Source: Spirochaetia bacterium
GTDB taxonomy: Bacteria; Spirochaetota; Spirochaetia; G963692905
NCBI GenBank assembly: GCA_965220165.1
Contig: CBDCPJ010000050.1
Location: forward strand, 6,622-70,621
Length of the DNA: 64,000 bases
Direction: 5' to 3'
Every line of letters starts with the position of its first letter. Within the stretch, counting starts at the first letter, position 1. The position numbers were made by a program, and so were the translations under genes. Of the stretch, positions 7,131-49,620 are shown one piece after another. The notes beneath the pieces were generated by a model that saw nothing but the letters and a program-made list of their open reading frames with translations, searched no databases and was not told the origin of the DNA.

Positions 7131-7910
7131 CTAGCGAGATACTGCTTTGCGCAGTATGCGATATACTAGACTACGAGGCAACAATCGATTCGTGATCATT
7201 ACGATGAGTCGATTGATCGCGCCGGGAATACAGATCGCCTTGCCTCGTTTAAGAGCGACGAAAGACGCGTCTACCACCTGTTCGGATGTCATCCATCGAA
7301 TCAACGACGCTTGCTTCTTGATTGTCTCCGTCGTCCCTGATTTGCGGTGGAAATCGGTGCGCGTTAATCCGGGTAGCAACGCTTGCACCACTATGCCATG
7401 AGGGCCCAATTCGCTGGCTAGCGCTTCGGAAAAGCTGGTAAGAAACGCTTTTGTCGCGCTGTAGATCGCCGTGTTGGGCACAGGATAAAATGATAGCAGA
7501 GAAGAAACGTTAATTATCGCTCCTCGCTTGTTCTTTACCATAGCGGGAGCTATCGCATGAATCAGTTGTAACGCGACGTCTATATGCACGCTCACCATAT
7601 TCTCATGTTCGAAGTAATCCACTTCGAGAAATGTGCCGTAGTTTCCAAACCCGGCGTTATTGATCAATACTTCGATATCTTCATAAGGCTGTATTTCTTG
7701 GAGCAAAGCGGAAAACTCTATTGGACTGGATAATTCGATGATATGTTCCACAACTTCGACTCCATATTTTTCTGCTATTTCCCGAGCGACCTGGGTCAAT
7801 TCTTCCTTTCTACGCCCTGTAATAACAAGATCATATCCCTGTTCTCCAAGGCGGTAGGCAAATACTTTTCCTATGCCGCTCGTCGCCCCGGTAATTACCG
7901 CTCTCGCCAT
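7131..7910 (-). CDS. Short-chain dehydrogenase/reductase (classical SDR)
   Basis: TGATSGIG, NNAG, YSATK. GGAG-type RBS upstream. Confidence 0.92.
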   Translation of the reverse strand: MARAVITGATSGIGKVFAYRLGEQGYDLVITGRRKEELTQVAREIAEKYGVEVVEHIIELSSPIEFSALLQEIQPYEDIEVLINNAGFGNYGTFLEVDYFEHENMVSVHIDVALQLIHAIAPAMVKNKRGAIINVSSLLSFYPVPNTAIYSATKAFLTSFSEALASELGPHGIVVQALLPGLTRTDFHRKSGTTETIKKQASLIRWMTSEQVVDASFVALKRGKAICIPGAINRLIVMITNRLLPRSLVYRILRKAVSR

Positions 7911-7922
7911 AGATTCCTCTCC

Positions 7923-9125
7923 TTATTGCGGCGCGTCAATTGCGCCTGAGTCGTTCTTCTGCATATTTTGTTGATTGAATAATATAAGTCCCACAATAAC
8001 TGGAGCGATAAATCCAACACTAATAATTCCAAATCCCGCGTTAGCTCCAACTATGTCTTGCACGACACCCACCGATCCATTAAATAGCGCTTGCAATAGC
8101 CCTGAAACAAGTAACGAAACACCCATCGCGCTTCCTGACGATCGGCCAAATTGTCGCGTGAGCATTAATATGGCTATCGGAAACAGCGGAGAGATGAACA
8201 ACCCGATGACTGGAAACAGGAACACAAGTCGCGGGATCAATAGAGCCGCTATAAAGCAACCAAGCGAGAGCGCGCCGCAAATTATTATCGTCATCGCCAC
8301 GCCAATACGATTGATAACGAATCCGGCAATAAGCCTGCTTATAGTAAATAACAGAAAAAATATCGAGAGCATTTGTCCGCTCGCAATCTCGCCGAATTGG
8401 CGTTGTTCGATAAGAAAAATTTTGATCCAGTCTCCAAATGAGACTTCGCTAATCAGCGCGCCGGTAAGCAATACAATCACCAGCCAGAGCGATCGAGATC
8501 GTAATAGTTCTCTAAATGTCGGCGCGCCCTTGATCGATTCGCGTTGGATTAGGGGAAGTGGAGCGAACCGCCATAATAGCAACGACAGCAACGCTATGGG
8601 CGCCACCAAAAGATAGGTCTGGTGCCAGATGAGCGATTTTTCTAATAGGAGCGTTATCAAATAGGGGGCGATAGTGGCGCCGGCGCCAAAAAAGAAATGG
8701 AGAACATTGAGCTTGAGCGCGGCGTTTTTTCCGAACCAATATCCTCCGGCCAAATTCACGCCCAAATCACCGCTTCCATTGGCGCATCGCAGAAAAAAGA
8801 AAATGAGAATGACCGAGAAAAAAGAGGTTGCCAGTCTCATAACAAGCAACACAACGGTAAGAGCTACGAGGCTAATTACCATAATGAGGCGAGGACCAAC
8901 TTTATCGCCAAATAAGCCGCTGACAAAAAACGACAGGAGAAAGCCGCAACTGCTTAATGCGGTTATCGCGCCGATCCTGCTATAGCTAAGATTTAAATTA
9001 TCGCGAATTATGGGCAATATAACTGTTCGAGACGCCTCTAAATACCCAATAATAAATATCGCCGAAAATGTTAGAATATAGACTAATCGAGATGAATTAG
9101 CCGAAGAGGTCGCGCGATCGCTCAT
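7923..9125 (-). CDS. MFS transporter
   Basis: About 12 hydrophobic segments, motif-A-like SGLFGDKVGPR, LNVLHFFFGAGATIAP. Confidence 0.88.
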   Translation of the reverse strand: MSDRATSSANSSRLVYILTFSAIFIIGYLEASRTVILPIIRDNLNLSYSRIGAITALSSCGFLLSFFVSGLFGDKVGPRLIMVISLVALTVVLLVMRLATSFFSVILIFFFLRCANGSGDLGVNLAGGYWFGKNAALKLNVLHFFFGAGATIAPYLITLLLEKSLIWHQTYLLVAPIALLSLLLWRFAPLPLIQRESIKGAPTFRELLRSRSLWLVIVLLTGALISEVSFGDWIKIFLIEQRQFGEIASGQMLSIFFLLFTISRLIAGFVINRIGVAMTIIICGALSLGCFIAALLIPRLVFLFPVIGLFISPLFPIAILMLTRQFGRSSGSAMGVSLLVSGLLQALFNGSVGVVQDIVGANAGFGIISVGFIAPVIVGLILFNQQNMQKNDSGAIDAPQ

Positions 9126-9162
9126 AATGAATAGTCGGAAATATTAAAAACGCGCGGCATCG

Positions 9163-12100
9163 TTAACGTTTCTCTTGAGGAGAGCCCTTGACCTGCAAAA
9201 CGGCGCCTCCAAAAGTCAAACCTCCGCCAAATGCTGTTAGACCAATATATTCTCCTGCGGGACGATGGTCCATTATTTCTTGCAAGCATATAGGAATCGT
9301 GCTCGACGATGTGTTGCCATAATTCTTTACATTGCTGTAGACAACTTCCTGATCAACCTTAAGCTGCTGTCTTACGGCATTGATAATGCGCTGATTCGCT
9401 TGATGCGGGATAACTAATCCAAGGTCTCCAATATCGATTTCCGTCTTTTGGCATGCAAGTTGAAGACTCTTAGTCATATACCGCACAGCCTCTCGAAACA
9501 CCGACGGGCCATCCATTCTAATCTTTCTACTGCCGTGCTTTACTACCTGGAGGAGATCGCCATTTTCGCCATTCGCGCCGATTACAGGCCTAAATAACCG
9601 CATGGAGCGGCCGCTTTGCGAATGTTTGCCAATCAACAGAGTCGCGGTCGCCGCATCGCCAAATACAGGAGCGGTAGAGGGGTCGCTTGTATCAAGAAAG
9701 CGCGAAAGCGTTTCGGTGGTAACGACAAGGACATTTCCTCCATTATTATTGATCAACCAATCATAGGCTATTTGAAGAGAGTACAGGTAACCGCTACATG
9801 CCGCATTTACATCATACGCGGCGGCAAGAAACTCGCCCGGTTTTTGATGAAATGCATATTGAATCAGCGCCGCCATCGAAGGGGTATTTTGCATTGGCGT
9901 TTCGGTGGAACATATAATAAGCCCCATCTGCTCTATGGTAAGATTGTTCTTCTCCAATAGCGGGCGCACCGCTTCGATCGCTATAGTAAATGCGTCCTCG
10001 TCGTCGTCCAGCCAATAACGAGAAGCGATGCCGGTTCTTCGAACGATATCTCTGGGCGACCATTTAGCGCACATTTTTGATATCTCCTCGTTATCTATGA
10101 CCCTTTTTCCATGGGAACTTTCTATAGCGACGATCTCAACGCTTATATCGTTGCCGTCGCTGGATCCGATAGATATTTGCGATTCAATATTCGCTTTCTT
10201 TGCGGAAATGCCCTTGATAATTGGAGTTCCTGGGTCCTCTCGAGTAATTGATTTTGCCACCGGCATTTCATCAGCGATTCGCACCAACAGCAACGGCGTT
10301 CCAATTTGGACAAATTCCCCCTCAGGTACTAAAATCTCTTCCAGAACGCCGGAAAATGGCGCGCGAAGATCGACTGAGGCTTTATCGGCCTCCATCTCGG
10401 CGATAACATCGCCCACGGCAATGGTATCCCCTACCTTTACCCGCCATTCGATAACCGTAATCGATTCATCGGAGGGGCTTGAGCCGATCGCCTCAATTAC
10501 CGATAACCCTTCGCGCGTATCATTCTTTCGCTTCCAGCTAATTTCGCCTCCAAGCAGCTCGACTGCCGTTTCTAATACTCGTCGATAGGAGGGCAATACG
10601 TTCAATTGATTGGCAAAATTGCATGGAACATAGGTATCTGATCGGGTTACTCTGCGCGCTTCAATCTTTTTTGACGATTGCTCGCATATAGTAGAGATAA
10701 CTTCGGCGCCCATCCCGGCGCTGTGGTTGTCTTCATGGGCAACAATGAGGCGCCCGCTTCTGTTTACCGCTTTTAATACGCTTTTGGATTCCCATGGCAT
10801 AAGCGAGCGGAGGTCGATAACAGAACTTTCAACATCAAATTCCGCCAAAGTGTCGGCCGCCTTTCGACATAGTTCTACCGTGTTGCCCCATGCAACAAAG
10901 GTTATGTCGTCGCCGTCGCGCAATATTCTCGCCTTCCCGATGGGAATCTTATGCGACGCTATATCTGACGATGTGGTCCGCTGGCGATTATTGAGGCAGT
11001 TTTTTGGATAGAAGAACAGCGTGGGACGTCCCGAACGAAATGCGCTGTTGAGAAGGCCCGCGGCATCTCCGGCGCTGCTTGGCATCATAACATCGATTCC
11101 GGGAGTGTGGACGGCGATCGACTCCATCGCGCTGGCATGAAATGGCCCCAATCCCGGTCGGTAGCCTCCGCATGTTATCATAACGATAACTGGCGCTTGC
11201 CATCCTCCATTTGTTCGCCAATAGAGACTTCCAAGCTCCGAGAATATTTGATTGTAGGCGATGGGTAAAAAATCGGCAAACTGAAGAAAGGCGACAGGAC
11301 GTTTTCCCGCTAGGGCCTGTCCGATAGAGATGCCAACAATGGAGGCCTCGGCGAGCGGCGAATTCATGACACGCGAGCCAAATTCTTTAGAAAGCCCTTT
11401 CGTAATGCCAAATACATCGCCTTTAGGGTCCTCTATGTCCTCTCCAAAAAGAACGACGCGCTCGTCCTCGGCTAGATGATTATGCAAAACCTGGCGAATA
11501 GCTTGAAGCATCGTAAGCCTATCCGATCCATCGTCGTCGTTGCCATGATACTCTTGCGATCTTGGCAAAAGCTCTTTTGCGAGCGGCTTTATAGCGCTAT
11601 GGATCGCTTTTGGTTCGCGGGCGCGTCGAGATCGATCCATCGCCTCTTTGGCTTTGATTTCAATCTCTTGCTCTATTTTGATAAGCTCCTCTTCCGCAAT
11701 GTTGGCGCCAATAAGATCGCGACGCAACGCGGCGACTGGATCGCCCGTATTACTTGATAGCGCTATTTCTTGCTCGCTGCGATAGACCCGCTGGTCGTCC
11801 GCGTTTGTATGATTGGAGAGGCGTTCAACATTAAACAACGCGATAGCGGGGCCGCGATGAGCGCGCATATTGTCCGTTATTCGCTCAAAATGGTCGTACA
11901 CGGAGGTTGGCTTTCGACCGTCGATATTGGCGATCGGGATGCCATAGAATGAATCGGCAAGGCCGGCGGGAGTCGAATAAAAAGTGTTGCCCTCTGTGCG
12001 CGTAGATATGGCGAACGAATTGTTTTGAATGAGGAACAAAACCGGCAAATTGCGTCGAACCGCGTGCCCGATAGCTTCGAGCACTTCGCCCTGTTGCGTC

Positions 12101-12540
12101 ATGCCGTCGCCCAAGGAGCAGAGAACGATAGGTTTATCGGATTGCGTATGGACCGCCTCCGCGACGCCCACCGCCTGCAACGCGCTATTGCCAACTGGGC
12201 CGACCGTGCTGAGTATCTGTAACTCCGGCGCGCTCATGTGGGCATTCATCTGCCTGCCTTTTGAGTGCGACGCATCTTTGTTGAACGCCGCGAGAAAAAA
12301 CGACTCGATGGAGATGCCTCGCGCGAGCATAAGCGCTTTGTCGCGATAGTGACAATGCAACCAATCAGAAGGAGTAAGGAAATGGTCTAAAATGGCAGAC
12401 GCCTCGTGGCCACTTCCCGAAACATGGAAGAATATACCGCCGCTCTCGGCGAGTCGCGTCTCTACGTTATCGATAGATCGTGAAGCTACCATATATCGGT
12501 AGCTTTGGAGGAGTTTTTGCTGTTTTATGTCGTCATTCAT
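9163..12540 (-). CDS. Fusion protein: 2-oxoacid dehydrogenase E1-alpha + E1-beta + lipoyl domain + beta-ketoacyl-ACP synthase III (FabH-like)
   Basis: ThDP motif GDG(144-146)...NN(173-174). E1-beta LFGEDI and NSPLAE. Lipoyl motif EMEADK720A. KAS III triad AAC915SG, PH1046QAN, GN1076TSS. Confidence 0.92.
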   Translation of the reverse strand: MNDDIKQQKLLQSYRYMVASRSIDNVETRLAESGGIFFHVSGSGHEASAILDHFLTPSDWLHCHYRDKALMLARGISIESFFLAAFNKDASHSKGRQMNAHMSAPELQILSTVGPVGNSALQAVGVAEAVHTQSDKPIVLCSLGDGMTQQGEVLEAIGHAVRRNLPVLFLIQNNSFAISTRTEGNTFYSTPAGLADSFYGIPIANIDGRKPTSVYDHFERITDNMRAHRGPAIALFNVERLSNHTNADDQRVYRSEQEIALSSNTGDPVAALRRDLIGANIAEEELIKIEQEIEIKAKEAMDRSRRAREPKAIHSAIKPLAKELLPRSQEYHGNDDDGSDRLTMLQAIRQVLHNHLAEDERVVLFGEDIEDPKGDVFGITKGLSKEFGSRVMNSPLAEASIVGISIGQALAGKRPVAFLQFADFLPIAYNQIFSELGSLYWRTNGGWQAPVIVMITCGGYRPGLGPFHASAMESIAVHTPGIDVMMPSSAGDAAGLLNSAFRSGRPTLFFYPKNCLNNRQRTTSSDIASHKIPIGKARILRDGDDITFVAWGNTVELCRKAADTLAEFDVESSVIDLRSLMPWESKSVLKAVNRSGRLIVAHEDNHSAGMGAEVISTICEQSSKKIEARRVTRSDTYVPCNFANQLNVLPSYRRVLETAVELLGGEISWKRKNDTREGLSVIEAIGSSPSDESITVIEWRVKVGDTIAVGDVIAEMEADKASVDLRAPFSGVLEEILVPEGEFVQIGTPLLLVRIADEMPVAKSITREDPGTPIIKGISAKKANIESQISIGSSDGNDISVEIVAIESSHGKRVIDNEEISKMCAKWSPRDIVRRTGIASRYWLDDDEDAFTIAIEAVRPLLEKNNLTIEQMGLIICSTETPMQNTPSMAALIQYAFHQKPGEFLAAAYDVNAACSGYLYSLQIAYDWLINNNGGNVLVVTTETLSRFLDTSDPSTAPVFGDAATATLLIGKHSQSGRSMRLFRPVIGANGENGDLLQVVKHGSRKIRMDGPSVFREAVRYMTKSLQLACQKTEIDIGDLGLVIPHQANQRIINAVRQQLKVDQEVVYSNVKNYGNTSSSTIPICLQEIMDHRPAGEYIGLTAFGGGLTFGGAVLQVKGSPQEKR

Positions 12541-14079
<1,539 letters not shown>

Positions 14080-14097
14080 CTATCCATATACGAAAAA

Positions 14098-14307
14098 TTG
14101 GGCGTTGCGGGCATGCTATGGGGCGTTTTACGATTACGAATTCGATGCCCGCTGAGGGGGGAGAGGAAGCATGAAAGATCGGCGGCGGGCGGAGCGCGAG
14201 CGGAGCCCGAGCGCTCCGAGCGCGCGAGGAGAGCAGCCGATCGGTGTCTCCGACTGCGAAGTCGGAGACATTCAGGCTGGAACGAGGGGGGAGACTTCCC
14301 CCTCATT
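14098..14307 (+). repeat. Dispersed structured intergenic repeat, copy A
   Basis: TTGGGCGTTGCGGGC (14098), GCCCGCTGAGGGGGG (14147), CGAGGGGGGAGAC (14283), TTCCCCCTCATT (14296). Same motif order as copies B and C. Confidence 0.8.
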
Positions 14308-22809: not shown

Positions 22810-25071
22810 ATGTCTAATACAATGGAAATATCGCAAAACGACGGGTATAGACCCGCCCAACGCAAGAAGGCTCGGAAAACCTATCTCCTTTTTATGGTAT
22901 TCAACGCCGCCTCATTTTGGTTGCTCAGCAACAATATCGTAACTCTATTCGCGATTCGTCTTAATGCCACCACAAGCTATATAGGATTGCTATCGGCGAT
23001 GAGCTACATTTCACTCTTCGCCATAATTATCGGTCGCCATATCGCCAAGCAGACGCCTGTCTTGCGGCTATTTCACCGCGCATGGTTATTGAGATATCTA
23101 TCGATGATCATAATATTGCCGGCGCCGCTATTGATAAACGCCAATCTTCGCTTGCTCGCCCTGTTTCTTATGGGCGCGGCGGTATTCGGCTTCCATATTT
23201 TTCGGGGAATAGGCCTTGTATCAAATAGCCCGCTCATCGGAGAACTCTCGACAGGAAAAGATCGCGGCGCCTATTTAGCGAGCATTCAAATTATTGGCTC
23301 CTCGGCGGCAGTTGTCGCGGGACTGACAATCGCCCTTGTATTGGGCCGTACAGCCCCGTTGATTCGCTATAGCATATGTTTTGGCATCGGCATCGCAAGC
23401 GGTTTAATCGCTACAAAAATACTCGCTCAAATACCGCCCCTACCAAACAACTACAATATAGAAGAGACTCGCTCGACATTTTCGATCGCCGACGCATTTC
23501 GCAACAAAAACTTTGCAAAATTCATTATCAGCTTATTTATCTTCGGGGCGCTATCGGGAGCGCTCCGCACCTTCGCAGTGGTCTATGTTCGCGAAGTGTA
23601 CGCGCAGAGCGACCTATCCATAGCGCTCTACACCGTCGCCGGAAGCATCGGCATGTTGATAATAGGAAAACTTTCCGGCGCATTGATCGATCGAATCGGC
23701 GCAAAACCAATCTATTCCTTCTACGCCACTCTATTATCGATCTCGGCATACGCAGTTCTCTTCGCCCCCCAATTCCACAACAGAATCCTTATCACCATAT
23801 TTTGCGGCCTCATATTTCTAATGATCAACACCGCGTTGGCCGGCGGAGAATATTCGGCTCAGATCTATTTTTTTGGCTCGATCTCCAACCGCGAACGGCT
23901 TAATCTGGGAACTCTCTACTTTCTAACGCTCGGACTGGGAGGAAGCTCGGGCCTATTGATCGGCGGAATGATCATCGACATCCTGCTCCAAGACGGCAGG
24001 CTACCGCCCAGTTTGCTCTTTCGCATCTTTTTTGGATGCATCGCGCTATTGCTCACCGTTTGCGTCTCGCTTATCTTGCGCCTTGAACGATTGGGGGCGA
24101 CCTCGATAAAAAACGCGCTGTCGATTATTCTCTCTCCGCGCAATCTCCGTTCGGTGGTGCTTATGAACAAATTGGAACAATCAACCTCTATCGTGGACGA
24201 AAAAAAAATCATCGGCGACGCCGCCAACATAAAGACGCCGATTATCTCCGACGACCTCTCTTCTCGCCTTCAATCGCCAAGTTTGGAAATTCGAAGCGCG
24301 ACGCTCCATGCCATCGAGAATCTTCCGCTTACCGAAAACTCGGAGGCTATGATCGTCAAAGAAATCGAAACGCGGGAGTATACCACCGCCTATATCGCGG
24401 CGCGTATCGCCGGAAGACGCGACATAAAAAGGGCGACCCCCGTGTTGCGACAGCAATTGTCCAGCGGCGACTATATACTTGTGGCTAAATCGATGGTGGC
24501 GCTCGCCCGATTGCGCGACGAAGAATCGATCGGCAGGATTGAAACAATGCTCGCGCAACCCGCCAATCCATTTGTCTTAACTCACGGGGTCGCGGCGCTG
24601 CGCATTTTTCGAAATAGCTCCTCGCTCCCGCTATTATTTTCGATATTGCGCAAGGCAAAAAGCCCCGTCAACATTGTAGTAGATGTATTGCTGGCGATTG
24701 GCGCGGTGATGGGAATGGACGAATCGTTCTATCCTCTCCTTCGCGATCTTCCCAACCCAGATACCGATTCGTGGAATATATTGTCAGAAGAGCTCCTCGA
24801 AAACGCAACCCGCTACCCCGAAAAAATCGGCGCAATGTTAAAATCACTGGCAAACGCGCCCGAAAAACAGCGATCGACAGTCGCCATCGCGACGCTGGAA
24901 ACATTGCAACAATCGCTCTCTGACCTCCCCATCTTTGAACTTGCGATACTATCGCTTAAAGACGATTCCCTACAATATCCCGAACTCTCCTTTTTTATGA
25001 TCTACCTCATCCTTTATTTAACAAAAATGCTGGCAAGCGAACAAGGGCGCCTCAAAAAAACGAAAAAATAG
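22810..25071 (+). CDS. MFS transporter fused to a HEAT-repeat-like domain
   Basis: About 12 TM segments (GALIDRIGAK), then helical repeats (AARIAG, MVALARL, GVAALRIF). Confidence 0.75.
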   Translation: MSNTMEISQNDGYRPAQRKKARKTYLLFMVFNAASFWLLSNNIVTLFAIRLNATTSYIGLLSAMSYISLFAIIIGRHIAKQTPVLRLFHRAWLLRYLSMIIILPAPLLINANLRLLALFLMGAAVFGFHIFRGIGLVSNSPLIGELSTGKDRGAYLASIQIIGSSAAVVAGLTIALVLGRTAPLIRYSICFGIGIASGLIATKILAQIPPLPNNYNIEETRSTFSIADAFRNKNFAKFIISLFIFGALSGALRTFAVVYVREVYAQSDLSIALYTVAGSIGMLIIGKLSGALIDRIGAKPIYSFYATLLSISAYAVLFAPQFHNRILITIFCGLIFLMINTALAGGEYSAQIYFFGSISNRERLNLGTLYFLTLGLGGSSGLLIGGMIIDILLQDGRLPPSLLFRIFFGCIALLLTVCVSLILRLERLGATSIKNALSIILSPRNLRSVVLMNKLEQSTSIVDEKKIIGDAANIKTPIISDDLSSRLQSPSLEIRSATLHAIENLPLTENSEAMIVKEIETREYTTAYIAARIAGRRDIKRATPVLRQQLSSGDYILVAKSMVALARLRDEESIGRIETMLAQPANPFVLTHGVAALRIFRNSSSLPLLFSILRKAKSPVNIVVDVLLAIGAVMGMDESFYPLLRDLPNPDTDSWNILSEELLENATRYPEKIGAMLKSLANAPEKQRSTVAIATLETLQQSLSDLPIFELAILSLKDDSLQYPELSFFMIYLILYLTKMLASEQGRLKKTKK

Positions 25072-40771: not shown

Positions 40772-43700
40772 CTACTCGTCGTTATCCCAATTGCTAAGGT
40801 CTTCGCCAGAATCGTTTATGTCTTCGAATGCTTCGCCGATCTTTGATTTTTTATTCTTCTTGGGTTCTATATTATCATTATCTTTGTGCTCGTTTTCGGC
40901 TAAAAGAGCTATCGACTGTTGGAGAATCTTATAGATTTTTTCACTTGCAATTTCTCTATCTATCTTTAATGCAATGGAAATCTCATCAGCTAGTGTGCCC
41001 AATGTACTGTCCAACATCTTACGTTCCATTATAGGCAGATCTTTCATTAGTTTTCTCTGATAAAGAGAACGTACCACTTTCGCGATTTCAAAAAGAGTCC
41101 CTTTTTTGATACTGTCAAGATAGTATTGATATCGCATCTTCCAATCAGCCGGTACTGCTTCTCCCTCCTCCGCAAGAATATCCAGCGCTTTATTTGCTTT
41201 TCGACTTGATACTATTGACCGTATCTTTTGTTTGGTTATTTGTGTTGTTGGAACCATTACCGTCATCTCAGTGCTAGCAATATATATTACGTAGTAGAGT
41301 ATCATTTCGCCATCAAATTCACGCTCTTCGATTGCAACTATCTCGCCAACTCCTTGCACTGGATAGACTACTTTTTGATACAATTTAAACCGCAATTCAG
41401 ACGATTTCTTCCCTTTTTTATCTATACCTTTTTCAATTTGCCCAGCCTCTCGCTCGACCTGATTGGGCGACGATTCATCAACGGCGTCTTGGTCGGATAT
41501 CCGCTCATCGGCCGCGGCGGATGAGTCGCTTTGCGGCGGGCGTTCTTGCTCGCTCTTTGGCTTGCGGCCGCGGCGCTTCTTTGCTGCCGGTCGATCGGAA
41601 ACAGAAACGGGGCGCTCCCCGCTCTGACTGGACGCCGATCCATTAGCGGCGCCTTGGGTCGATGTATCAGCGCTGTCGCGGCCCTGCTCAGCGCTCTCCT
41701 GTCCGGGTATCCGCGCGGTGGTTGCGGCGGGCGGGTCGCCAGCGCTGTCATGTTCGGGAAGCCGCTCATCGGCCGCGGCGGGCGAGTCGCTTTGCGGCGG
41801 GCGTTCTTGCTCGCTCTTTGGCTTGCGGCCGCGGCGCTTCTTTGCTGCCGGTCGATCGGAAACAGAAACGGGGCGCTCCCCGCTCTGACTGGACGCCGAT
41901 CCATTAGCGGCGCCTTGGGTCGATGTATCAGCGCTGTCGCGGCCCTGCTCAGCGCTCTCCTGTCCGGGTATCCGCGCGGTGGTTGCGGCGGGCGGGTCGC
42001 CAGCGCTGTCATGTTCGGAAAGCCGCTCATCGGCCGCGGCGGGCGAGTCGCTTTGCGGCGGGCGTTCTTGCTCGCTCTTTGGCTTGCGGCCGCGGCGCTT
42101 CTTTGCTGCCGGTCGATCGGAAACAGAAACGGGGCGCTCCCCGCTCTGACTGGACGCCGATCCATTAGCGGCGCCTTGGGTCGATGTATCAGCGCTGTCG
42201 CGGCCCTGCTCAGCGCTCTCCTGTCCGGGTATCCGCGCGGTGGTTGCGGCGGGCGGGTCGCCAGCGCTGTCATGTTCGGAAAGCCGCTCATCGGCCGCGG
42301 CGGATGAGTCGCTTTGCGGCGGGCGTTCTTGCTCGCTCTTTGGCTTGCGGCCGCGGCGCTTCTTTGCTGCCGGTCGATCGGAAACAGAAACGGGGCGCTC
42401 CCCGCTCTGACTGGACGCCGATCCATTAGCGGCGCCTTGGGTCGATGTATCAGCGCTGTCGCGGCCCTGCTCAGCGCTCTCCTGTCCGGGTATCCGCGCG
42501 GTGGTTGCGGCGGGCGGGTCGCCAGCGCTGTCATGTTCGGAAAGCCGCTCATCGGCCGCGGCGGGATGAGTCGCTTTGCGGCGGGCGTTCTTGCTCGCTC
42601 TTTGGCTTGCGGCCGCGGCGCTTCTTTGCTGCCGGTCGATCGGAAACAGAAACGGGGCGCTCCCCGCTCTGACTGGACGCCGATCCATTAGCGGCGCCTT
42701 GGGTCGATGTATCAGCGCTGTCGCGGCCCTGCTCAGCGCTCTCCTGTCCGGGTATCCGCGCGGTGGTTGCGGCGGGCGGGTCGCCAGCGCTGTCATGTTC
42801 GGAAAGCCGCTCATCGGCCGCGGCGGATGAGTCGCTTTGCGGCGGGCGTTCTTGCTCGCTCTTTGGCTTGCGGCCGCGGCGCTTCTTTGCTGCCGGTCGA
42901 TCGGAAACAGAAACGGGGCGCTCCCCGCTCTGACTGGACGCCGATCCATTAGCGGCGCCTTGGGTCGATGTATCAGCGCTGTCGCGGCCCTGCTCAGCGC
43001 TCTCCTGTCCGGGTATCCGCGCGGTGGTTGCGGCGGGCGGGTCGCCAGCGCTGTCATGTTCGGAAAGCCGCTCATCGGCCGCGGCGGATGAGTCGCTTTG
43101 CGGCGGGCGTTCTTGCTCGCTCTTTGGCTTGCGGCCGCGGCGCTTCTTTGCTGCCGGTCGATCGGAAACAGAAACGGGGCGCTCCCCGCTCTGACTGGAC
43201 GCCGATCCATTAGCGGCGCCTTGGGTCGATGTATCAGCGCTGTCGCGGCCCTGCTCAGCGCTCTCCTGTCCGGGTATCCGCGCGGTGGTTGCGGCGGGCG
43301 GGTCGCCAGCGCTGTCATGTTCGGAAAGCCGCTCATCGGCCGCGGCGGATGAGTCGCTTTGCGGCGGGCGTTCTTGCTCGCTCTTTGGCTTGCGGCCGCG
43401 GCGCTTCTTTGCTGCCGGTCGATCGGAAACAGAAACGGGGCGCTCCCCGCTCTGACTGGACGCCGATCCATTAGCGGCGCCTTGGGTCGATGTATCAGCG
43501 CTGTCGCGGCCCTGCTCAGCGCTCTCCTGTCCGGGTATCCGCGCGGTGGTTGCGGCGGGCGGGTCGCCAGCGCTGTCATGTTCGGAAAGCCGCTCATCGG
43601 CCGCGGCGGATGAGTCGCTTTGCGGCGGGCGTTCTTGCTCGCTCTTTGGCTTGCGGCCGCGGCGCTTCTTTGCTGCCGGTCGATCGGAAACAGAAACGGG

Positions 43701-45359
43701 GCGCTCCCCGCTCTGACTGGACGCCGATTCATTAGCGGCGCCTTGGGTCGATGTATCAGCGCTGTCGCGGCCCTGCTCAGCGCTCTCCTGTCCGGGTATC
43801 CGCGCGGTGGTTGCGGCGGGCGGGTCGCCAGCGCTGTCATGTTCGGAAAGCCGCTCATCGGCCGCGGCGGATGAGTCGCTTTGCGGCGGGCGTTCTTGCT
43901 CGCTCTTTGGCTTGCGGCCGCGGCGCTTCTTTGCTGCCGGTCGATCGGAAACAGAAACGGGGCGCTCCCCGCTCTGACTGGACGCCGATCCATTAGCGGC
44001 GCCTTGGGTCGATGTATCAGCGCTGTCGCGGCCCTGCTCAGCGCTCTCCTGTCCGGGTATCCGCGCGGTGGTTGCGGCGGGCGGGTCGCCAGCGCTGTCA
44101 TGTTCGGAAAGCCGCTCATCGGCCGCGGCGGATGAGTCGCTTTGCGGCGGGCGTTCTTGCTCGCTCTTTGGCTTGCGGCCGCGGCGCTTCTTTGCTGCCG
44201 GTCGATCGGAAACAGAAACGGGGCGATCCCCGCTCTGACTGGACGCCGATCCATTAGCGGCGCCTTGGGTCGATGTATCAGCGCTGTCGCGGCCCTGCTT
44301 AGCGCTCTCGCTGTCCGGGTATCCGCGCGGTGGTTGCGGCGGGTATCAGCGCTGTCGCGGCCCTGCTCAGCGGGTCGGGTCGCCAGCGCTGTCATGTTCG
44401 GAAAGCCGCTCGAAAACAGAAACGGGGCGATCGGCCGCGGCGGATGAGTCGCTTTGCGGCGGGCGCTCTTGCTCGCTCTTTGGCTTGCTCGGCGCTGCTA
44501 CCGGTCGATCGGAAACAGAAACGGGGGCTCCCCTCTGACTGGACGCCGATTCATTAGCGGCGCCTTGGGTCGATGTATCAGCGCTGTCGCGGCCCTGTAG
44601 CGCTCTCATGTCCGGTATCCGCGCGGTGGTTGCGGCGGGCGGGTCGCCAGCGCTGTCATGTTCGGAAAGTCGCTCATCGGCCGCGGCGGATGAGTCGCTT
44701 TGCGGCGGGGGCGCTCTTTGGCTCATGAACTCGGCGTTGTTCTGCTACCGGTCGCTCGAAAACAGAAACGGGGCGATCCCCATCTGACTGGACGCCGATT
44801 CATTAGTGGCGCCTTGGGTCGATGTATCAGCGCTGTCGCGGCCCTGCTCAGCGCTCTCATGTCCGGGTATCCGCGCGGTGGTTGCGGCGGGCGGGTCGCC
44901 AGCGCTGTCATGTTCGGAAAGCCGCTCATCGGCCGCGGCGGATGAGTCGCTTTGCGGCGGGCGTTCTTGCTCGCTCTTTGGCTCATGAACTCGGCGTTGT
45001 TCTGCTACCGGTCGCTCGAAAACAGAAACGGGGCGCTCCCCGCTCTGACTGGACGCCGATTCATTAGCATTGTCATGGGCAGATTTATTAGCTGTGTCGT
45101 GGTCTTGATCAACAGCATCATGGTCAGATGCACGCTCGTCAGTCACTGCGGGCAGTTCGCTTTGCAGCATTTTTTCTGGATAAGATGCCCCATCAGCACT
45201 ATCAGACGCCTGTGTAATTATCTCGGATTGACTTTGTGGAGGCGTTACTACGTCCTGTTCTGATCGCCCGTCGTTTTTATCATATTTACTAGCTTGCGTT
45301 CTATCAATATCATCGTGGATAGATTGCGACGTATTTTCTTTATTCTTATCTGACGACAC
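40772..45359 (-). CDS. carD: CarD/CdnL-family transcription factor with very long N-terminal repeat region (frame broken in this sequence)
   Basis: GGAGGT RBS + GTG at 45359. C-terminal ~210 aa: FKLYQKVVYPVQGVG.I, MTVMVP, DWKMRY, LPIMERKM. The unique N-terminus (ORF 44745-45359) and the CarD ORF are joined by the array. Confidence 0.85.
41501..45068 (-). repeat. 261-bp (87-aa) tandem repeat, about 13.7 copies
   Basis: Unit marker ccgctcatcgg at 41501, 41762, 42023, 42284, 42545, 42807, 43068, 43329, 43590, 43851, 44112, then a garbled unit near 44400 and variant units near 44671 and 44932. Confidence 0.97.
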
Positions 45360-48036: not shown

Positions 48037-49620
48037 TTAAGATGACTGATTTTCGCCTATAATATGGCGATTATAATAGAATTCAAAGCTATCTACCAAT
48101 GCCTCCCAAGACGCTTCAATAATATTTTCATGCACTCCAACCGTATCCCAATTACTCCCGTTGGTCGACGATGAAGTGATAAATACTCGAACTTTTGCCG
48201 CTGCCGCTCGTTCAGGATTAAGAACGCGTACACGAAAATCAATCAAAGATATCCCTTTTATGAACGGATAATGTCCCGAGAGCGCGTTGCGAATTGCAAG
48301 ATCGAGCGTTTCAACTGGCCCATTGCCAACAGCCGCGCCCATTAACGTTGTATTTGTTAGATCGACAAATATACGACCAACGGTCTGAGAGTAGTCTCCT
48401 ATCGCTCGATAGGTTTCAAGGTGCCAATTGCGTAGCGAAAAAAGCGGCTGATAAATATTGATCGCCTTACGAATAAGTAAATCAAACGAGGCCTCCGCAG
48501 CTTCGTATTCATAACCCATTGATTCGCGGCTTTTAAGCGTGTCTATTAATTGCTGGACTACAGGCGACTGCTTAGTATATTCGCCATATTGAGATAACTT
48601 GCTTACCATCGTCGATTTTCCAGCTAATTCAGATAGAATAATATGGCGGCTATTGCCGACTTGCGCGCCATCTATATGTTCCATAAGAGCCGGAGATTTT
48701 TGGATAACATCGGCATGTTGTCCGGCTTTGTGACTGAATGCCGCTTCGCCAACATATGGCTGGCGTTTATCTGGAATAATGTTGGCCTTTTCGGAAATAT
48801 ATCTCGACAGCTCTGTCAAACGACTGATATTTTGATACACAGCGGGACGAAGCCCCTTTTTTATACAGAAGTTGGGAATAAGCACACAGAGATTAGCATT
48901 TCCACAGCGTTCTCCCCATCCATTAATTGTGCCTTGAATTTGAATCGCTCCTTGCTCGACAGCCACCAAGGAATTGGCTGTTGCTGTTCCACAATCATTG
49001 TGGAAATGCCCGCCTAATGGAGCTAATTCAGACTGCGGCAACTCCGTGTAGATCTTTGCTATTTCATCCGGCAAAGTGCCGCCATTAGTATCGCACGGCA
49101 CAATAATGTCCGCTCCGGCTTCGGTTGCCGTTCGTAGTATTTCTATAGCGTATGCGGCATCATCTTTGTATCCATCAAAAAAATGTTCGGAATCATAAAT
49201 CACCTCGCGCCCTTCACTCTTAAGAAAACGTATAGAATCGGCAATCATAGATAGATTTTCTTTGGGATCGGTACGGAGCACACTAGATACATGCGATTTC
49301 CATGTTTTCCCCACAATTGTAACCGTGGGAGTTTGCGCGCTCAATATAGCTCGTAAATTATCATCTTGATCAGCCCGGACGCCGGCTTTACGCGTAGATC
49401 CAAATGCGCAAATCTTAGCGTGATGAAATGAACTACGCAGACAACGACGAAAAAATTGCGCCTCTTTTTCATTGCTGTGTGGAAAGCCGCCCTCTATATA
49501 GTCAATTTGCATTTCATCCAATCGATGGGCGATTTGGAGCTTGTCCTCTAATGTATAGTTAACATCAATTCCCTGCATTCCATCGCGCAGGGTTGTATCA
49601 TAGATTAGTAATTTTTGCAT
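48037..49620 (-). CDS. cimA: Citramalate synthase (DRE-TIM family)
   Basis: YDTTLRDGMQG, DYIEGGFP, GKTWKSHV, DSEHFFDGYK, HFHND, GWGERCGNANL, AFSHKAGQH. Confidence 0.85.
   Translation of the reverse strand: MQKLLIYDTTLRDGMQGIDVNYTLEDKLQIAHRLDEMQIDYIEGGFPHSNEKEAQFFRRCLRSSFHHAKICAFGSTRKAGVRADQDDNLRAILSAQTPTVTIVGKTWKSHVSSVLRTDPKENLSMIADSIRFLKSEGREVIYDSEHFFDGYKDDAAYAIEILRTATEAGADIIVPCDTNGGTLPDEIAKIYTELPQSELAPLGGHFHNDCGTATANSLVAVEQGAIQIQGTINGWGERCGNANLCVLIPNFCIKKGLRPAVYQNISRLTELSRYISEKANIIPDKRQPYVGEAAFSHKAGQHADVIQKSPALMEHIDGAQVGNSRHIILSELAGKSTMVSKLSQYGEYTKQSPVVQQLIDTLKSRESMGYEYEAAEASFDLLIRKAINIYQPLFSLRNWHLETYRAIGDYSQTVGRIFVDLTNTTLMGAAVGNGPVETLDLAIRNALSGHYPFIKGISLIDFRVRVLNPERAAAAKVRVFITSSSTNGSNWDTVGVHENIIEASWEALVDSFEFYYNRHIIGENQSS

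What the first reader, a model, noticed from the sequence alone, without database searches (positions are those of the whole stretch)
9163..12540. Single-chain E1-alpha/E1-beta/lipoyl/FabH enzyme lacking an E2 acyltransferase
Seen: one 1125-aa ORF with an intact ThDP motif (GDG...NN), an E1-beta domain (~340-665), a lipoyl domain with EADK720, and a KAS III domain (~800-1120) with Cys915-His1046-Asn1076. There is no E2 catalytic domain, and no E2 or E3 gene in the window. Its ATG directly follows the ilvC stop. Known: normally BCKDH (E1/E2/E3) makes branched acyl-CoA, which a separate FabH uses to prime iso/anteiso fatty acids. PDH-like E1 plus lipoyl modules can also deliver acyl units to biosynthetic assembly lines. 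Inference: the lipoyl arm may pass the acyl group from E1 straight to the FabH cysteine, giving CoA-independent channelled priming from 2-oxoacids. I do not recall a characterised enzyme with this architecture.
Basis: partly seen in the sequence, partly recalled or inferred. Interest (0 to 1): 0.88.

Follow-up and report, generated by a model that had tools for sequence, protein, structure and literature searches.

The report
FabH fused to E1 and lipoyl arm
One 1125-residue protein joins a 2-oxoacid decarboxylase (E1), a lipoyl swinging arm and a fatty-acid-priming condensing enzyme (FabH) that has lost its coenzyme-A grip, so it probably starts fatty-acid chains directly from 2-oxoacids without acyl-CoA; the design is common in several bacterial phyla, and I found no published study of it.

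Summary
ORF 9163..12540 (-) encodes E1alpha-E1beta-lipoyl-KAS III with every catalytic residue intact. The protein has no E2 core, and the window has no E2 or E3. Three independent assemblies carry the gene without indels.

It is not a one-off. At least 80 species genomes from Spirochaetota, Planctomycetota, Kiritimatiellia, Lentisphaerae, Verrucomicrobiota and other phyla encode full-length copies.

- The FabH domain keeps Cys-His-Asn and the ACP-docking Arg in 120/120 members. It has lost the CoA adenine clamp (W32 to Asp, R151 to Pro). None of 66 lipoyl-fused representatives keeps both residues, against 44 of 66 standalone FabHs.
- One variant reads lipoyl-PSBD-KAS III behind an E1 gene, which is an E2 chain with FabH replacing the acyltransferase core.
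- Other variants add a fused KR and ACP, or sit next to an ACP gene.

Most likely E1 loads the acyl group on lipoyl-K720, and C915 takes it and condenses it with malonyl-ACP. A free E3 would recycle the arm.

Still open: the 2-oxoacid used, whether this is the cell's only FabH, and any biochemical proof. Full-text searches found no prior description.

The parts
9163..12540 (-). Whole gene: E1alpha-E1beta-lipoyl-KAS III, 1125 aa plus stop
   Evidence: Intact in three independent assemblies. More than 120 full-length homologues.
11608..12501 (-). E1alpha module (res 14-311). ThDP motif G144-D145-G146...N174. H244 corresponds to human BCKDH H291alpha / G. stearothermophilus H271alpha.
   Evidence: Pfam PF00676, E 1e-40. 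Best PDB match is T. thermophilus branched-chain-type E1 1um9_A. These residues are invariant in 120/120, except D145, which is D or E.
10546..11517 (-). E1beta module (res 342-665). E398 is the ThDP-activating Glu. H468 is the proton donor for reductive acylation of lipoate.
   Evidence: PF02779 and PF02780. PDB matches 1ik6 and 1um9_B. E398 and H468 are invariant. The role of this His is taken from PMC2663715.
10270..10503 (-). Lipoyl domain (res 680-757). The lipoyl-lysine K720 (codon 10381-10383) sits in the motif E-A-D-K-A.
   Evidence: PF00364, E 8.6e-18. Best PDB matches are E2 lipoyl domains; biotinyl domains score much lower. A718, D719, K720 and A721 are invariant or nearly so.
10144..10269 (-). 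Flexible tether between the lipoyl domain and KAS III (res 758-799). It holds a spirochaete-specific motif T766-x-E768-x-x-G771-x-P773.
   Evidence: Length varies from 35 to 125 aa across the family, and conservation falls to 0.2 over res 776-800. AlphaFold pLDDT is below 50 for res 781-797. No PSBD is present.
9187..10143 (-). KAS III (FabH) module (res 800-1118). Catalytic residues C915 (codon 9796-9798), H1046 and N1076. ACP-docking R1051 and R835. The CoA adenine clamp is replaced: D831 (E. coli W32, codon 10048-10050) and P954 (E. coli R151, codon 9679-9681). T886 takes the place of E. coli F87.
   Evidence: NF006829 at 260.6 bits against a cutoff of 249. Best PDB matches are genuine FabHs: 2ebd, 1zow, 8vd9. 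The clamp role is taken from PMC4606726.
12541..14043 (-). Upstream class-II-type ketol-acid reductoisomerase (ilvC-like). Its stop codon directly abuts the fusion gene's ATG.
   Evidence: KARI_N plus two KARI_C stretches. TIGR00465 scores 223.4 against a cutoff of 226.15. Junction shown. The adjacency is not conserved elsewhere.
7923..9125 (-). MFS transporter, 37 bp downstream on the same strand. Probably part of the same operon.
   Evidence: PF07690. No terminator-like site in the gap. Only weak counterparts in 2 other loci.
7131..7910 (-). SDR (beta-keto-reductase-like), 12 bp after the MFS gene. Its orthologue lies directly downstream of the fusion gene in 13 spirochaete loci.
   Evidence: adh_short and KR domains. 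The best NCBIfam match is mycolate (beta-keto) reductase at 175 bits, below the cutoff of 380; 3-ketoacyl-ACP reductase models follow. Synteny. A KR domain is fused after KAS III in variant P0140.

Best explanation
The protein is a self-contained, E2-less 2-oxoacid:malonyl-ACP decarboxylating condensing enzyme.

Proposed steps:
1. The ThDP-dependent E1alpha-beta module decarboxylates a 2-oxoacid and reductively acylates the lipoyl group on K720. This step is inferred from intact, invariant E1 residues.
2. The lipoyl domain swings on its short E1-side tether and its long disordered KAS-side linker. It delivers the S-acyl-dihydrolipoyl thioester into the KAS III active-site tunnel, where C915 takes the acyl group. 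This is the new step. It replaces both the E2 transfer to CoA and the FabH acyl-CoA loading reaction. It is inferred, not shown.
3. KAS III decarboxylates malonyl-ACP through H1046/N1076 and condenses, releasing 3-ketoacyl-ACP into type II fatty-acid synthesis. This is inferred from the invariant triad and the invariant ACP-docking Arg.
4. A dihydrolipoamide dehydrogenase (E3) encoded elsewhere re-oxidises the arm in trans, as the L-protein does for the glycine-cleavage H-protein. This step is inferred and untested.

The substrate is most likely a branched-chain 2-oxoacid. This rests on the BCKDH-like E1, the translational coupling to ilvC here, and the iso-fatty acids of a cultured Oceanispirochaeta. 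Pyruvate is not excluded. The neighbouring SDR may reduce the 3-keto product.
For: Architecture and integrity.

E1 module: the residues needed for ThDP chemistry, and specifically for lipoyl reductive acylation (H244, H468, E398, G144/G146, N174), are invariant in 120/120. The lipoyl D-K-A lysine is also invariant. The role of the beta-chain His is taken from PMC2663715.

KAS III module: it is a genuine FabH by similarity. It keeps C112, H244, N274, N247, R249 and G305 in 120/120, with G306 in 119/120 and R36 in 118/120 (E. coli numbering). W32 becomes D/E/G and R151 becomes P/A/F/G, never R. Per PMC4606726, these two residues sandwich the CoA adenine.

Control: none of 66 lipoyl-fused representatives keeps both W32 and R151, against 44 of 66 standalone FabHs of 300-360 aa (Fisher p = 1.6e-18). 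The fused KAS domains form essentially one FabH subclade.

Rosetta-stone variants:
- P0225 is lipoyl-PSBD-KAS III, 13 bp behind a 657-aa E1alpha-beta gene.
- P0146, P0167 and P0173 are E1beta-lipoyl-KAS III.
- P0140 adds KR and PP-binding domains after KAS III.
- P0170 (lipoyl-KAS III) is followed 5 bp later by an ACP gene.

No E2 core lies in the window. Within 10 kb of 83 family loci, an E2 core occurs in only 1. In one Kiritimatiellia locus LplA lies directly upstream.

AlphaFold gives confidently folded modules (mean pLDDT 86) joined by a disordered linker at res 781-797.

The family is widespread and conserved, which argues for function.

Iso-C13:0 and iso-C15:0 are major fatty acids in cultured Oceanispirochaeta (PMC11129491). 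MAGs of that genus carry the fusion.
Against: - There is no biochemical evidence of any kind.
- The loss of W32/R151 is largely a shared trait of one clade, so the Fisher test overstates independence. A few standalone FabHs also lack R151 (5 of 66). Two fused proteins keep W32 and two keep R151.
- The lipoyl-lysine arm is shorter than the phosphopantetheine arm of CoA (general knowledge).
- No E3-docking element is present in this protein, and E3 is not a conserved neighbour (3 of 83 loci).
- Whether these genomes also carry a canonical FabH, an E2 or an acyl-CoA route could not be tested.
- Pirellulaceae and other carriers are not known for branched-chain lipids (my own knowledge), so the substrate, and perhaps the role, may differ between lineages.
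- The conserved SDR partner and the MFS gene could point to a specialised product rather than bulk membrane lipid.
Confidence: 0.6

Rival explanations
1. The mechanism is the same (lipoyl-to-cysteine transfer and condensation), but the product does not prime bulk membrane fatty-acid synthesis. The enzyme would start a specialised lipid or small metabolite, for example a beta-hydroxy or beta-keto branched acid, a signalling lipid or a polyketide-like compound. The adjacent SDR would reduce the product and the MFS protein would export it.
For: - The SDR orthologue is the only recurrent same-strand partner (13 spirochaete loci). Its best family match is a beta-keto reductase distinct from housekeeping FabG.
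- The operon here includes an MFS transporter.
- Variant P0140 carries its own KR and ACP, like a PKS module.
- The P0146 locus has a FeeM-type N-acyl amino acid synthase gene next door.
Against: - No dedicated ACP, thioesterase or tailoring genes lie within 10 kb in 83 loci.
- The gene is usually solitary in housekeeping surroundings and spread across many phyla. That fits primary metabolism.
- The KAS domain is closest to genuine FabHs rather than to secondary-metabolism KAS III-like enzymes.
Confidence: 0.17
2. The KAS III domain does not condense. It acts as a surrogate E2 acyltransferase that moves the acyl group from dihydrolipoyl-K720 through C915 to the thiol of holo-ACP (or another acceptor), giving acyl-ACP. 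Several KAS III-like enzymes are known to have acyltransferase activity.
For: - KAS III occupies the position of the E2 catalytic core in P0225.
- FabH-family enzymes with transacylase-only function exist (my own knowledge; not tested here).
- The ACP-docking Arg is retained.
Against: The decarboxylation and condensation residues H244, N274, N247 and G305 are invariant in 120/120 family members, with G306 in 119/120. H244 and N274 are also kept in nearly all distant representatives. Transacylase-type KAS III relatives usually lose the His-Asn pair (my own knowledge). The fused KR in P0140 implies a beta-keto product.
Confidence: 0.1
3. Conventional chemistry with co-localisation only. A separate E2 core encoded elsewhere would take the acyl group from the fused lipoyl domain and make acyl-CoA, which the fused FabH then uses like any FabH. 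This would be the mirror image of actinobacterial OdhA borrowing a lipoyl domain.
For: - Fusions that split 2-oxoacid dehydrogenase functions between proteins exist, for example OdhA (PMC10415282; only the abstract was seen).
- The rest of the genome could not be searched for a lipoyl-less E2 core.
Against: - The FabH domain has lost T28, W32 and R151, the residues that hold the CoA adenine.
- An E2 core lies within 10 kb in only 1 of 83 loci and nowhere in the window.
- In P0225 the E2 chain itself ends in KAS III instead of the acyltransferase core.
Confidence: 0.08

Closest known systems
Branched-chain 2-oxoacid dehydrogenase complex (E1alpha/E1beta, E2, E3) feeding a separate FabH, as in Bacillus, Staphylococcus and Listeria
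   Same: - BCKDH-type heterotetramer-class E1 with all catalytic residues.
- Lipoyl domain with the D-K-A lysine.
- A genuine FabH catalytic core.
- The same overall conversion: 2-oxoacid plus malonyl-ACP gives a branched 3-ketoacyl-ACP.
   Different: - All modules lie on one chain.
- There is no E2 acyltransferase core and no PSBD.
- No acyl-CoA intermediate is expected, because the FabH CoA adenine clamp is gone.
- E3 is not associated.
E2 chain of 2-oxoacid dehydrogenase complexes (lipoyl domain - PSBD - catalytic core)
   Same: The lipoyl domain sits on a flexible linker ahead of the acyl-accepting catalytic module. Variant P0225 even keeps the PSBD and the E1-then-E2 gene order.
   Different: The acyl acceptor module is a thiolase-fold condensing enzyme with a Cys nucleophile, not the CAT-fold CoA acyltransferase (PF00198). 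The window protein also lacks the PSBD.
Canonical FabH / KAS III (E. coli, S. aureus, B. subtilis, Aquifex)
   Same: - Roughly 35-40% identity.
- Cys-His-Asn triad, oxyanion Gly-Gly, Arg36 and the ACP-docking Arg249.
- Passes the NF006829 cutoff.
   Different: - T28, W32 and R151 (the adenine pocket) are replaced.
- F87 is replaced by Thr, which probably opens the primer pocket (inference).
- It is covalently tethered to a lipoyl domain.
- It falls below the TIGR00747 fabH cutoff (224 against 292).
Actinobacterial OdhA/KGD (E1o fused to an E2o core without a lipoyl domain)
   Same: It is a precedent for rearranged, fused 2-oxoacid dehydrogenase components that rely on a partner in trans (PMC10415282; abstract seen).
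   Different: OdhA keeps the E2 core and lacks the lipoyl domain. This protein keeps the lipoyl domain and lacks the E2 core. The OdhA product is still an acyl-CoA.
Alternative initiators of type II fatty-acid synthesis (MadA/YiiD malonyl-ACP decarboxylase; FabY)
   Same: They are routes that start fatty-acid synthesis without the standard acyl-CoA plus FabH step (PMC8666670, abstract seen; FabY is from my own knowledge).
   Different: The enzymes are unrelated and have no ThDP or lipoyl chemistry. Their primers come from malonyl-ACP or acetyl-CoA, not from 2-oxoacids.
PDH-like E1/E2 systems that deliver C2 units to carrier proteins in tetrahydroisoquinoline antibiotic pathways
   Different: Those systems retain an E2-type transferase and hand the unit to an ACP of an NRPS line. 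No ketosynthase takes the acyl group from lipoate.

Membership tests
2-oxoacid dehydrogenase E1, alpha/beta (heterotetramer) class | ThDP-binding motif GDG-X(25-30)-N in the alpha part, and the Glu of the beta part that activates ThDP | tested here: met
   G144-D145-G146...N174 and E398. G144, G146, N174 and E398 are invariant in 120/120; D145 is D or E. PF00676, PF02779 and PF02780 all pass their cutoffs.
2-oxoacid dehydrogenase E1, alpha/beta (heterotetramer) class | The two His residues used for reductive acylation of the lipoyl group (alpha His271 and beta His128 in G. stearothermophilus numbering) | tested here: met
   H244 and H468 are invariant. Alignments to human BCKDH E1alpha and T. 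thermophilus E1beta are. The residue roles are from PMC2663715.
2-oxoacid dehydrogenase E1, alpha/beta (heterotetramer) class | Separate alpha and beta polypeptides | tested here: not met
   Alpha and beta are fused by a linker of about 30 aa. Fused E1alpha-beta genes also exist on their own, for example the 657-aa gene in L091.
2-oxoacid dehydrogenase multienzyme complex (E1-E2-E3) | E2 catalytic acyltransferase core (PF00198) that transfers the acyl group to CoA | tested here: not met
   It is absent from the protein and from the whole window. It occurs within 10 kb in only 1 of 83 family loci.
2-oxoacid dehydrogenase multienzyme complex (E1-E2-E3) | Peripheral subunit-binding domain that recruits E1 and E3 | tested here: not met
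   No PF02817 hit. phmmer with two PSBDs finds it only in variant P0225.
2-oxoacid dehydrogenase multienzyme complex (E1-E2-E3) | Lipoyl domain with the lipoylatable Lys in a D-K-A turn | tested here: met
   PF00364 at E 8.6e-18. A718-D719-K720-A721 are conserved. Matches to E2 lipoyl domains far outscore biotinyl carriers. Actual lipoylation cannot be tested here.
2-oxoacid dehydrogenase multienzyme complex (E1-E2-E3) | A dihydrolipoamide dehydrogenase (E3) partner | not testable with these tools
   None lies in the window. One lies within 10 kb in 3 of 83 loci. Whole genomes could not be searched.
FabH / beta-ketoacyl-ACP synthase III | Cys-His-Asn catalytic triad and Gly-Gly oxyanion loop | tested here: met
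   C915, H1046, N1076 and G1105 are invariant in 120/120; G1106 is conserved in 119/120.
FabH / beta-ketoacyl-ACP synthase III | Curated family score | tested here: inconclusive
   NF006829 (subfamily) scores 260.6 against a cutoff of 249 and passes. TIGR00747 fabH scores 224.4 against a cutoff of 292.1 and fails.
FabH / beta-ketoacyl-ACP synthase III | ACP-docking arginine (E. coli Arg249) | tested here: met
   R1051 is invariant in 120/120. It is R or K in all but one representative that covers this position (P0212 has His).
FabH / beta-ketoacyl-ACP synthase III | Acyl-CoA primer site: the adenine is sandwiched by Trp32 and Arg151 and H-bonded to Thr28 | tested here: not met
   The window protein has D831 and P954. 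W32 and R151 are never retained in 120 members. Both are retained in 0 of 66 fused against 44 of 66 standalone representatives. The residue roles are from PMC4606726.
Ketol-acid reductoisomerase (the upstream gene) | KARI N- and C-domains, and the TIGR00465 equivalog score | tested here: inconclusive
   Both Pfam domains pass. TIGR00465 scores 223.4, just under its cutoff of 226.15.

The most novel reading that the evidence does not exclude
In Spirochaetota, Planctomycetota, Kiritimatiellia and other phyla this enzyme is the main or only initiator of fatty-acid synthesis. It would define a third general way to prime type II FAS: a 2-oxoacid dehydrogenase in which a ketosynthase has replaced the E2 core, so an acyl-dihydrolipoyl thioester directly acylates a condensing-enzyme cysteine and no acyl-CoA is ever made. 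As far as I could find, that transfer reaction has not been described for either enzyme family.
Probability: 0.35. Interest if true: 0.9.

Novelty: new variant of a known kind. Interest (0 to 1): 0.8.

Why it matters
If the mechanism holds, carbon from amino-acid and 2-oxoacid metabolism enters membrane-lipid synthesis without passing through the acyl-CoA pool. That changes how fatty-acid initiation should be annotated and modelled in several large, poorly studied phyla. Today these genes are named 'E1 component', 'transketolase' or 'FabH' at random.

It would add a new acceptor chemistry to the lipoyl swinging arm, and a new acyl donor to the ketosynthase family.

It would also give synthetic biology a compact single-gene module for making branched or otherwise unusual fatty-acid starters directly from 2-oxoacids.

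Because the natural variants come in split and fused forms, the hypothesis is directly testable by reconstitution.

Tried and rejected
1. **Prior art.** Nine full-text searches were run. Six of them targeted the fusion directly. None returned a paper on an E1-lipoyl-KAS III protein or on a lipoyl-to-ketosynthase transfer. The PDB sequence searches found only separate E1, E2 and FabH chains.

2. **Conserved operon partners.** I clustered about 1,100 neighbouring proteins from 83 loci and ran phmmer with E. coli FabH, FabD, FabG, AcpP, AceF, Lpd, LipA, LipB and LplA. There is no cross-phylum partner. The divergent aconitase seen in 31 loci is a genuine AcnA, so I judged it lineage synteny. The ilvC adjacency is unique to this genome.

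3. **A hidden PSBD in the linkers.** None was found except in P0225.

4. **Geometry of K720 relative to C915.** The AlphaFold model was obtained, but coordinates are not exposed, so no distance could be measured.

5. **Co-transcription of ilvC and the fusion gene.** No RNA run holds the sequence.

6. **E1 substrate specificity.** Best matches are BCKDH-type, but PDH E1s score only a little lower. The one structural paper I read gave no specificity determinants. This is left open.

7. **Is the fusion the only FabH in its genome?** No tool here searches one whole genome, so this was not resolved.

8. **Artefact or frameshift fusion.** Rejected.

9. **Biotinyl rather than lipoyl domain.** Rejected on the D-K-A motif and on the ranking of PDB matches.

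Full report
**Observation**

The window carries, on the minus strand at 9163..12540, one uninterrupted 1125-codon ORF. Pfam places six domains on it in this order:
- E1_dh (residues 14-311)
- Transket_pyr (342-516)
- Transketolase_C (535-646)
- Biotin_lipoyl (693-751)
- ACP_syn_III (909-975)
- ACP_syn_III_C (1030-1116)

There is no 2-oxoacid_dh (E2 core) domain and no E3_binding domain. NCBIfam's beta-ketoacyl-ACP synthase 3 model NF006829 covers 800-1117 above its cutoff.

The upstream gene is a class-II-type ketol-acid reductoisomerase. Its TAG stop is immediately followed by the ATG of the fusion gene.

Pfam scans of every large ORF, together with phmmer of E. coli AceF, Lpd, LipA, LipB, LplA, AcpP, FabD and FabH against all six-frame segments, show that the window holds no E2 core, no E3, no lipoylation gene, no ACP and no second FabH. 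The surroundings are ordinary chromosome: FtsK, TopA, RpoN, HprK, transketolase, hisFH, AcnA and two LeuA-family genes.

**Is it real?**

Contigs from three independent sequencing runs in two studies cover 9000-14200 without a single indel. The five SNPs inside the gene are three synonymous changes plus S525L and R327K.

**Distribution**

A search of 5.8 billion proteins returned more than 120 full-length proteins with the same six domains at 53-59% identity. Those that carry a name come mostly from Spirochaetota, for example Spirochaeta thermophila and Alkalispirochaeta.

The best 80 are all full length (query residues about 5-1116, 47-59% identity). They come from:
- Spirochaetota (Alkalispirochaeta, Marispirochaeta, Oceanispirochaeta, Salinispira)
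- Pirellulaceae and other Planctomycetota
- Kiritimatiellia/Pontiella, Lentisphaerae and Verrucomicrobiota
- Armatimonadia, Sumerlaeota and Nitrospirales
- Gammaproteobacteria MAGs and one cyanobacterial MAG

An exhaustive HMMER search of 1.84 billion cluster representatives with the lipoyl plus KAS III part recovered about 50 full-length representatives, down to 30% identity. This is an old, widespread family, not a local accident.

**Anatomy and conservation**

Across 120 family members, the E1 residues for ThDP binding and activation are invariant (G144, G146, N174, Y65, R66, E398). So are the two histidines used for reductive acylation of lipoate (H244, H468), and so is the lipoyl A-D-K-A turn, or nearly so. 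PMC2663715 states that the beta-chain histidine is required by lipoyl-dependent E1s but not by ThDP enzymes in general.

The E1 half is closest to the T. thermophilus and human branched-chain E1. Pyruvate-type E1s score only somewhat lower.

The lipoyl domain follows E1beta after only about 15 residues. The segment between the lipoyl domain and KAS III varies from 35 to 125 residues, is poorly conserved, and is disordered in an otherwise confident AlphaFold model (mean pLDDT 86, pTM 0.67, pLDDT below 50 at 781-797). This is what a swinging-arm tether looks like.

**The key new finding: the FabH domain has lost its CoA nucleotide site**

The KAS III domain is most similar to genuine FabHs from Aquifex, S. 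aureus, B. subtilis and T. thermophilus. It keeps C112, H244, N274, N247, G305 and the ACP-docking R249 in 120/120 members, with G306 in 119/120 and R36 in 118/120 (E. coli numbering).

In E. coli FabH the adenine of CoA stacks between Trp32 and Arg151 and hydrogen-bonds Thr28 (PMC4606726). In the fusion family position 32 is Asp (111), Glu (7) or Gly (2). Position 151 is Pro, Ala, Phe, Gly or another residue, but never Arg. The window protein has D831 and P954.

As a control I classified the 150 best cluster representatives by architecture:
- Of 66 proteins with a fused lipoyl domain, none keeps both W32 and R151, and 62 lack both.
- Of 66 standalone FabHs of 300-360 aa, 44 keep both (Fisher p = 1.6e-18).

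The test is not phylogenetically corrected. A neighbour-joining tree puts 54 of 60 fused KAS domains in one clade. The 19 unfused tips in that clade also lack the clamp, so they are fragments or trans-acting partners. The loss is therefore mostly a shared ancestral trait.

Even so, the loss has been maintained over divergence as deep as that among FabHs in general, while the condensation and ACP-binding residues stayed fixed. That pattern is expected if the primer no longer arrives on CoA.

**Natural variants that act as Rosetta stones**

- P0225 (511 aa) is lipoyl - E3_binding (PSBD) - KAS III. It lies 13 bp downstream of a 657-aa fused E1alpha-beta gene. This is the classic E1-E2 operon with FabH in place of the E2 acyltransferase core.
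- P0146, P0167 and P0173 (about 770-800 aa) are E1beta-lipoyl-KAS III, with E1alpha split off.
- P0170 (450 aa) and P0186 are lipoyl-KAS III only. P0170 is followed 5 bp later by an 81-aa PP-binding (ACP) gene.
- P0140 (1942 aa) continues after KAS III with a PKS-type KR domain and a PP-binding domain.

Together these show that the conserved functional unit is a lipoyl domain tethered to a KAS III. E1 can be supplied in cis or in trans. The KAS III product is a beta-ketoacyl thioester on an ACP.

**Context**

No partner is conserved across phyla. In 83 loci with 10-kb flanks an E2 core appears once and an E3 three times. LplA appears once, directly upstream in a Kiritimatiellia locus. ACP, FabD and a second genuine FabH never appear; the only extra EcFabH hit, in L062, is marginal at E = 7e-05.

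Within Spirochaetota an orthologous SDR lies immediately downstream on the same strand in 13 loci. In the window it follows after an inserted MFS gene, with gaps of 37 bp and 12 bp and no terminator-like site between them. The SDR's best family match is a beta-keto (mycolate) reductase, followed by 3-ketoacyl-ACP reductases, all below their cutoffs. This is suggestive given the KR fused in P0140, but not decisive.

The ilvC adjacency is not found in the other loci.

**Most likely mechanism**

1. E1 decarboxylates a 2-oxoacid and reductively acylates lipoyl-K720.
2. The lipoyl domain swings to the KAS III tunnel, and C915 takes the acyl group from the dihydrolipoyl thioester.
3. KAS III decarboxylates malonyl-ACP and condenses to give 3-ketoacyl-ACP.
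4. A free E3 re-oxidises the arm.

Steps 1 and 3 rest on intact, invariant catalytic machinery. Step 2 is the inferred novelty. It rests on the missing E2 core, the missing CoA clamp and the P0225 architecture. Step 4 is inferred by analogy with the glycine-cleavage H-protein and L-protein, and from the PSBD in P0225.

I put about 0.6 on this mechanism. The substrate is less certain. BCKDH-type similarity and translational coupling to ilvC point to branched-chain 2-oxoacids. So does the fatty-acid profile of cultured Oceanispirochaeta, whose major fatty acids are iso-C13:0, C14:0, iso-C15:0 and C16:0 (PMC11129491). But pyruvate is possible, and carriers such as Pirellulaceae are not known for branched lipids (my own knowledge).

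**Rivals**

- Same chemistry, but a specialised product rather than bulk lipid, given the SDR and MFS partners and the KR-ACP variant (0.17).
- KAS III acts as a mere transacylase to ACP (0.10). The invariant His-Asn pair and the fused KR argue against this.
- Conventional acyl-CoA route through an E2 encoded elsewhere (0.08). The lost CoA clamp and P0225 argue against this.
- Artefact: excluded.

**Comparison with known systems**

It works like a 2-oxoacid dehydrogenase complex coupled to FabH, but it is not a member of the E1-E2-E3 complex family as defined: the E2 core and the PSBD were tested and are absent. It is a FabH by fold, catalytic residues and one curated model, but it fails the acyl-CoA-site feature.

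The nearest precedents for rearranged complexes are actinobacterial OdhA, which is the opposite arrangement (E2 core kept, lipoyl domain lost), and PDH-like systems that feed carrier proteins in antibiotic pathways. The latter comparison is from my own knowledge and was not verified here.

Nine full-text searches, six of them aimed at the fusion itself, and four PDB sequence searches found no description or structure of a lipoyl-tethered ketosynthase (23, 28, 29, 86). Much of the subscription literature is not covered, so prior work cannot be excluded.

**Verdict**

- Novelty: a new variant of a known kind, in which a ketosynthase replaces the E2 core and implies a new acyl-transfer step.
- Interest: 0.8.

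The two most decisive missing pieces are a whole-genome census for canonical fabH, E2 and E3 in carrier genomes, and an in-vitro reconstitution with and without CoA.

Noticed in passing
window 41486-44343 (inside ORF 40772..44395, minus strand): A 261-bp tandem repeat of 10.9 copies at 99% identity and 68% GC sits in front of a CarD_TRCF_RID plus CarD_C domain. Translated, it gives 87-aa repeats read in two frames. The second set carries AT-hook-like KKRRGRKPK motifs. It could be a CarD with a repeated HMGA-like DNA-binding extension, or a recently expanded repeat that disrupts the gene start.
   Followed up: partly
L091:2419-5940: A two-gene form of the system: a 657-aa fused E1alpha-beta gene, a 13-bp gap, then lipoyl-PSBD-KAS III (P0225, 511 aa). 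It is the only family member found with a peripheral subunit-binding domain.
   Followed up: yes
L093:10001-15829: A 1942-aa giant (P0140): E1alpha-E1beta-lipoyl-KAS III-KR-PP-binding, plus about 250 unassigned C-terminal residues. It stands alone in a MAG contig next to an AbiEii-type gene.
   Followed up: partly
L094:18-1621: The lipoyl-KAS III protein P0170 (450 aa, with A-T-K-S instead of A-D-K-A at the lipoyl turn) is followed 5 bp later by an 81-aa PP-binding (ACP) gene.
   Followed up: partly
L086:8749-9825: In a Kiritimatiellia MAG, a lipoate-protein ligase (LplA, E 2.5e-52 to the E. coli enzyme) lies directly upstream of the fusion gene on the same strand.
   Followed up: no
window 10225-10245 (res 766-772); alignment A1: The spirochaete-type subfamily has an invariant short motif just after the lipoyl domain (T766-x-E768-x-x-G771-x-P773). 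AlphaFold predicts a beta-strand at 772-776. Distant variants lack it. It may be a docking peptide for E3 or for one of the catalytic modules.
   Followed up: partly
window 7131-7910 and 13 spirochaete loci (e.g. L008:6242-7039, L011:6314-7093): An SDR orthologue lies immediately downstream of the fusion gene, starting within 5 bp of the end of the fusion match in L008, L009 and L011 (coordinates). Its best family match is mycolate (beta-keto) reductase, below the cutoff. It may be a dedicated reductase for the KAS III product.
   Followed up: partly
window 48037-51124 (minus strand): Two tandem LeuA/CimA-family (HMGL-like plus LeuA_dimer) genes, probably 2-isopropylmalate synthase and citramalate synthase. 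They would supply branched-chain 2-oxoacid precursors in the same genome region.
   Followed up: no
window 9163-14043 (sequencing runs X1-X10): The runs that hold this sequence carry two organism labels. One of them also has a 102-Gb Hi-C library, so the spirochaete is probably a cobiont or contaminant in a eukaryote genome project rather than a free-living isolate.
   Followed up: no
window 22810-25071; L006:13178-15349: A 753-aa MFS transporter is fused to HEAT repeats. A 723-aa counterpart lies two genes downstream of the fusion gene in a Marispirochaeta genome.
   Followed up: no
L071 (Marinobacter halodurans NZ_SJDL01000060.1, 11.8-kb contig): A full-length fusion gene at 56% identity to the window protein sits on a short contig of a gammaproteobacterial isolate assembly. 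This is either horizontal transfer or a spirochaete contaminant contig.
   Followed up: no
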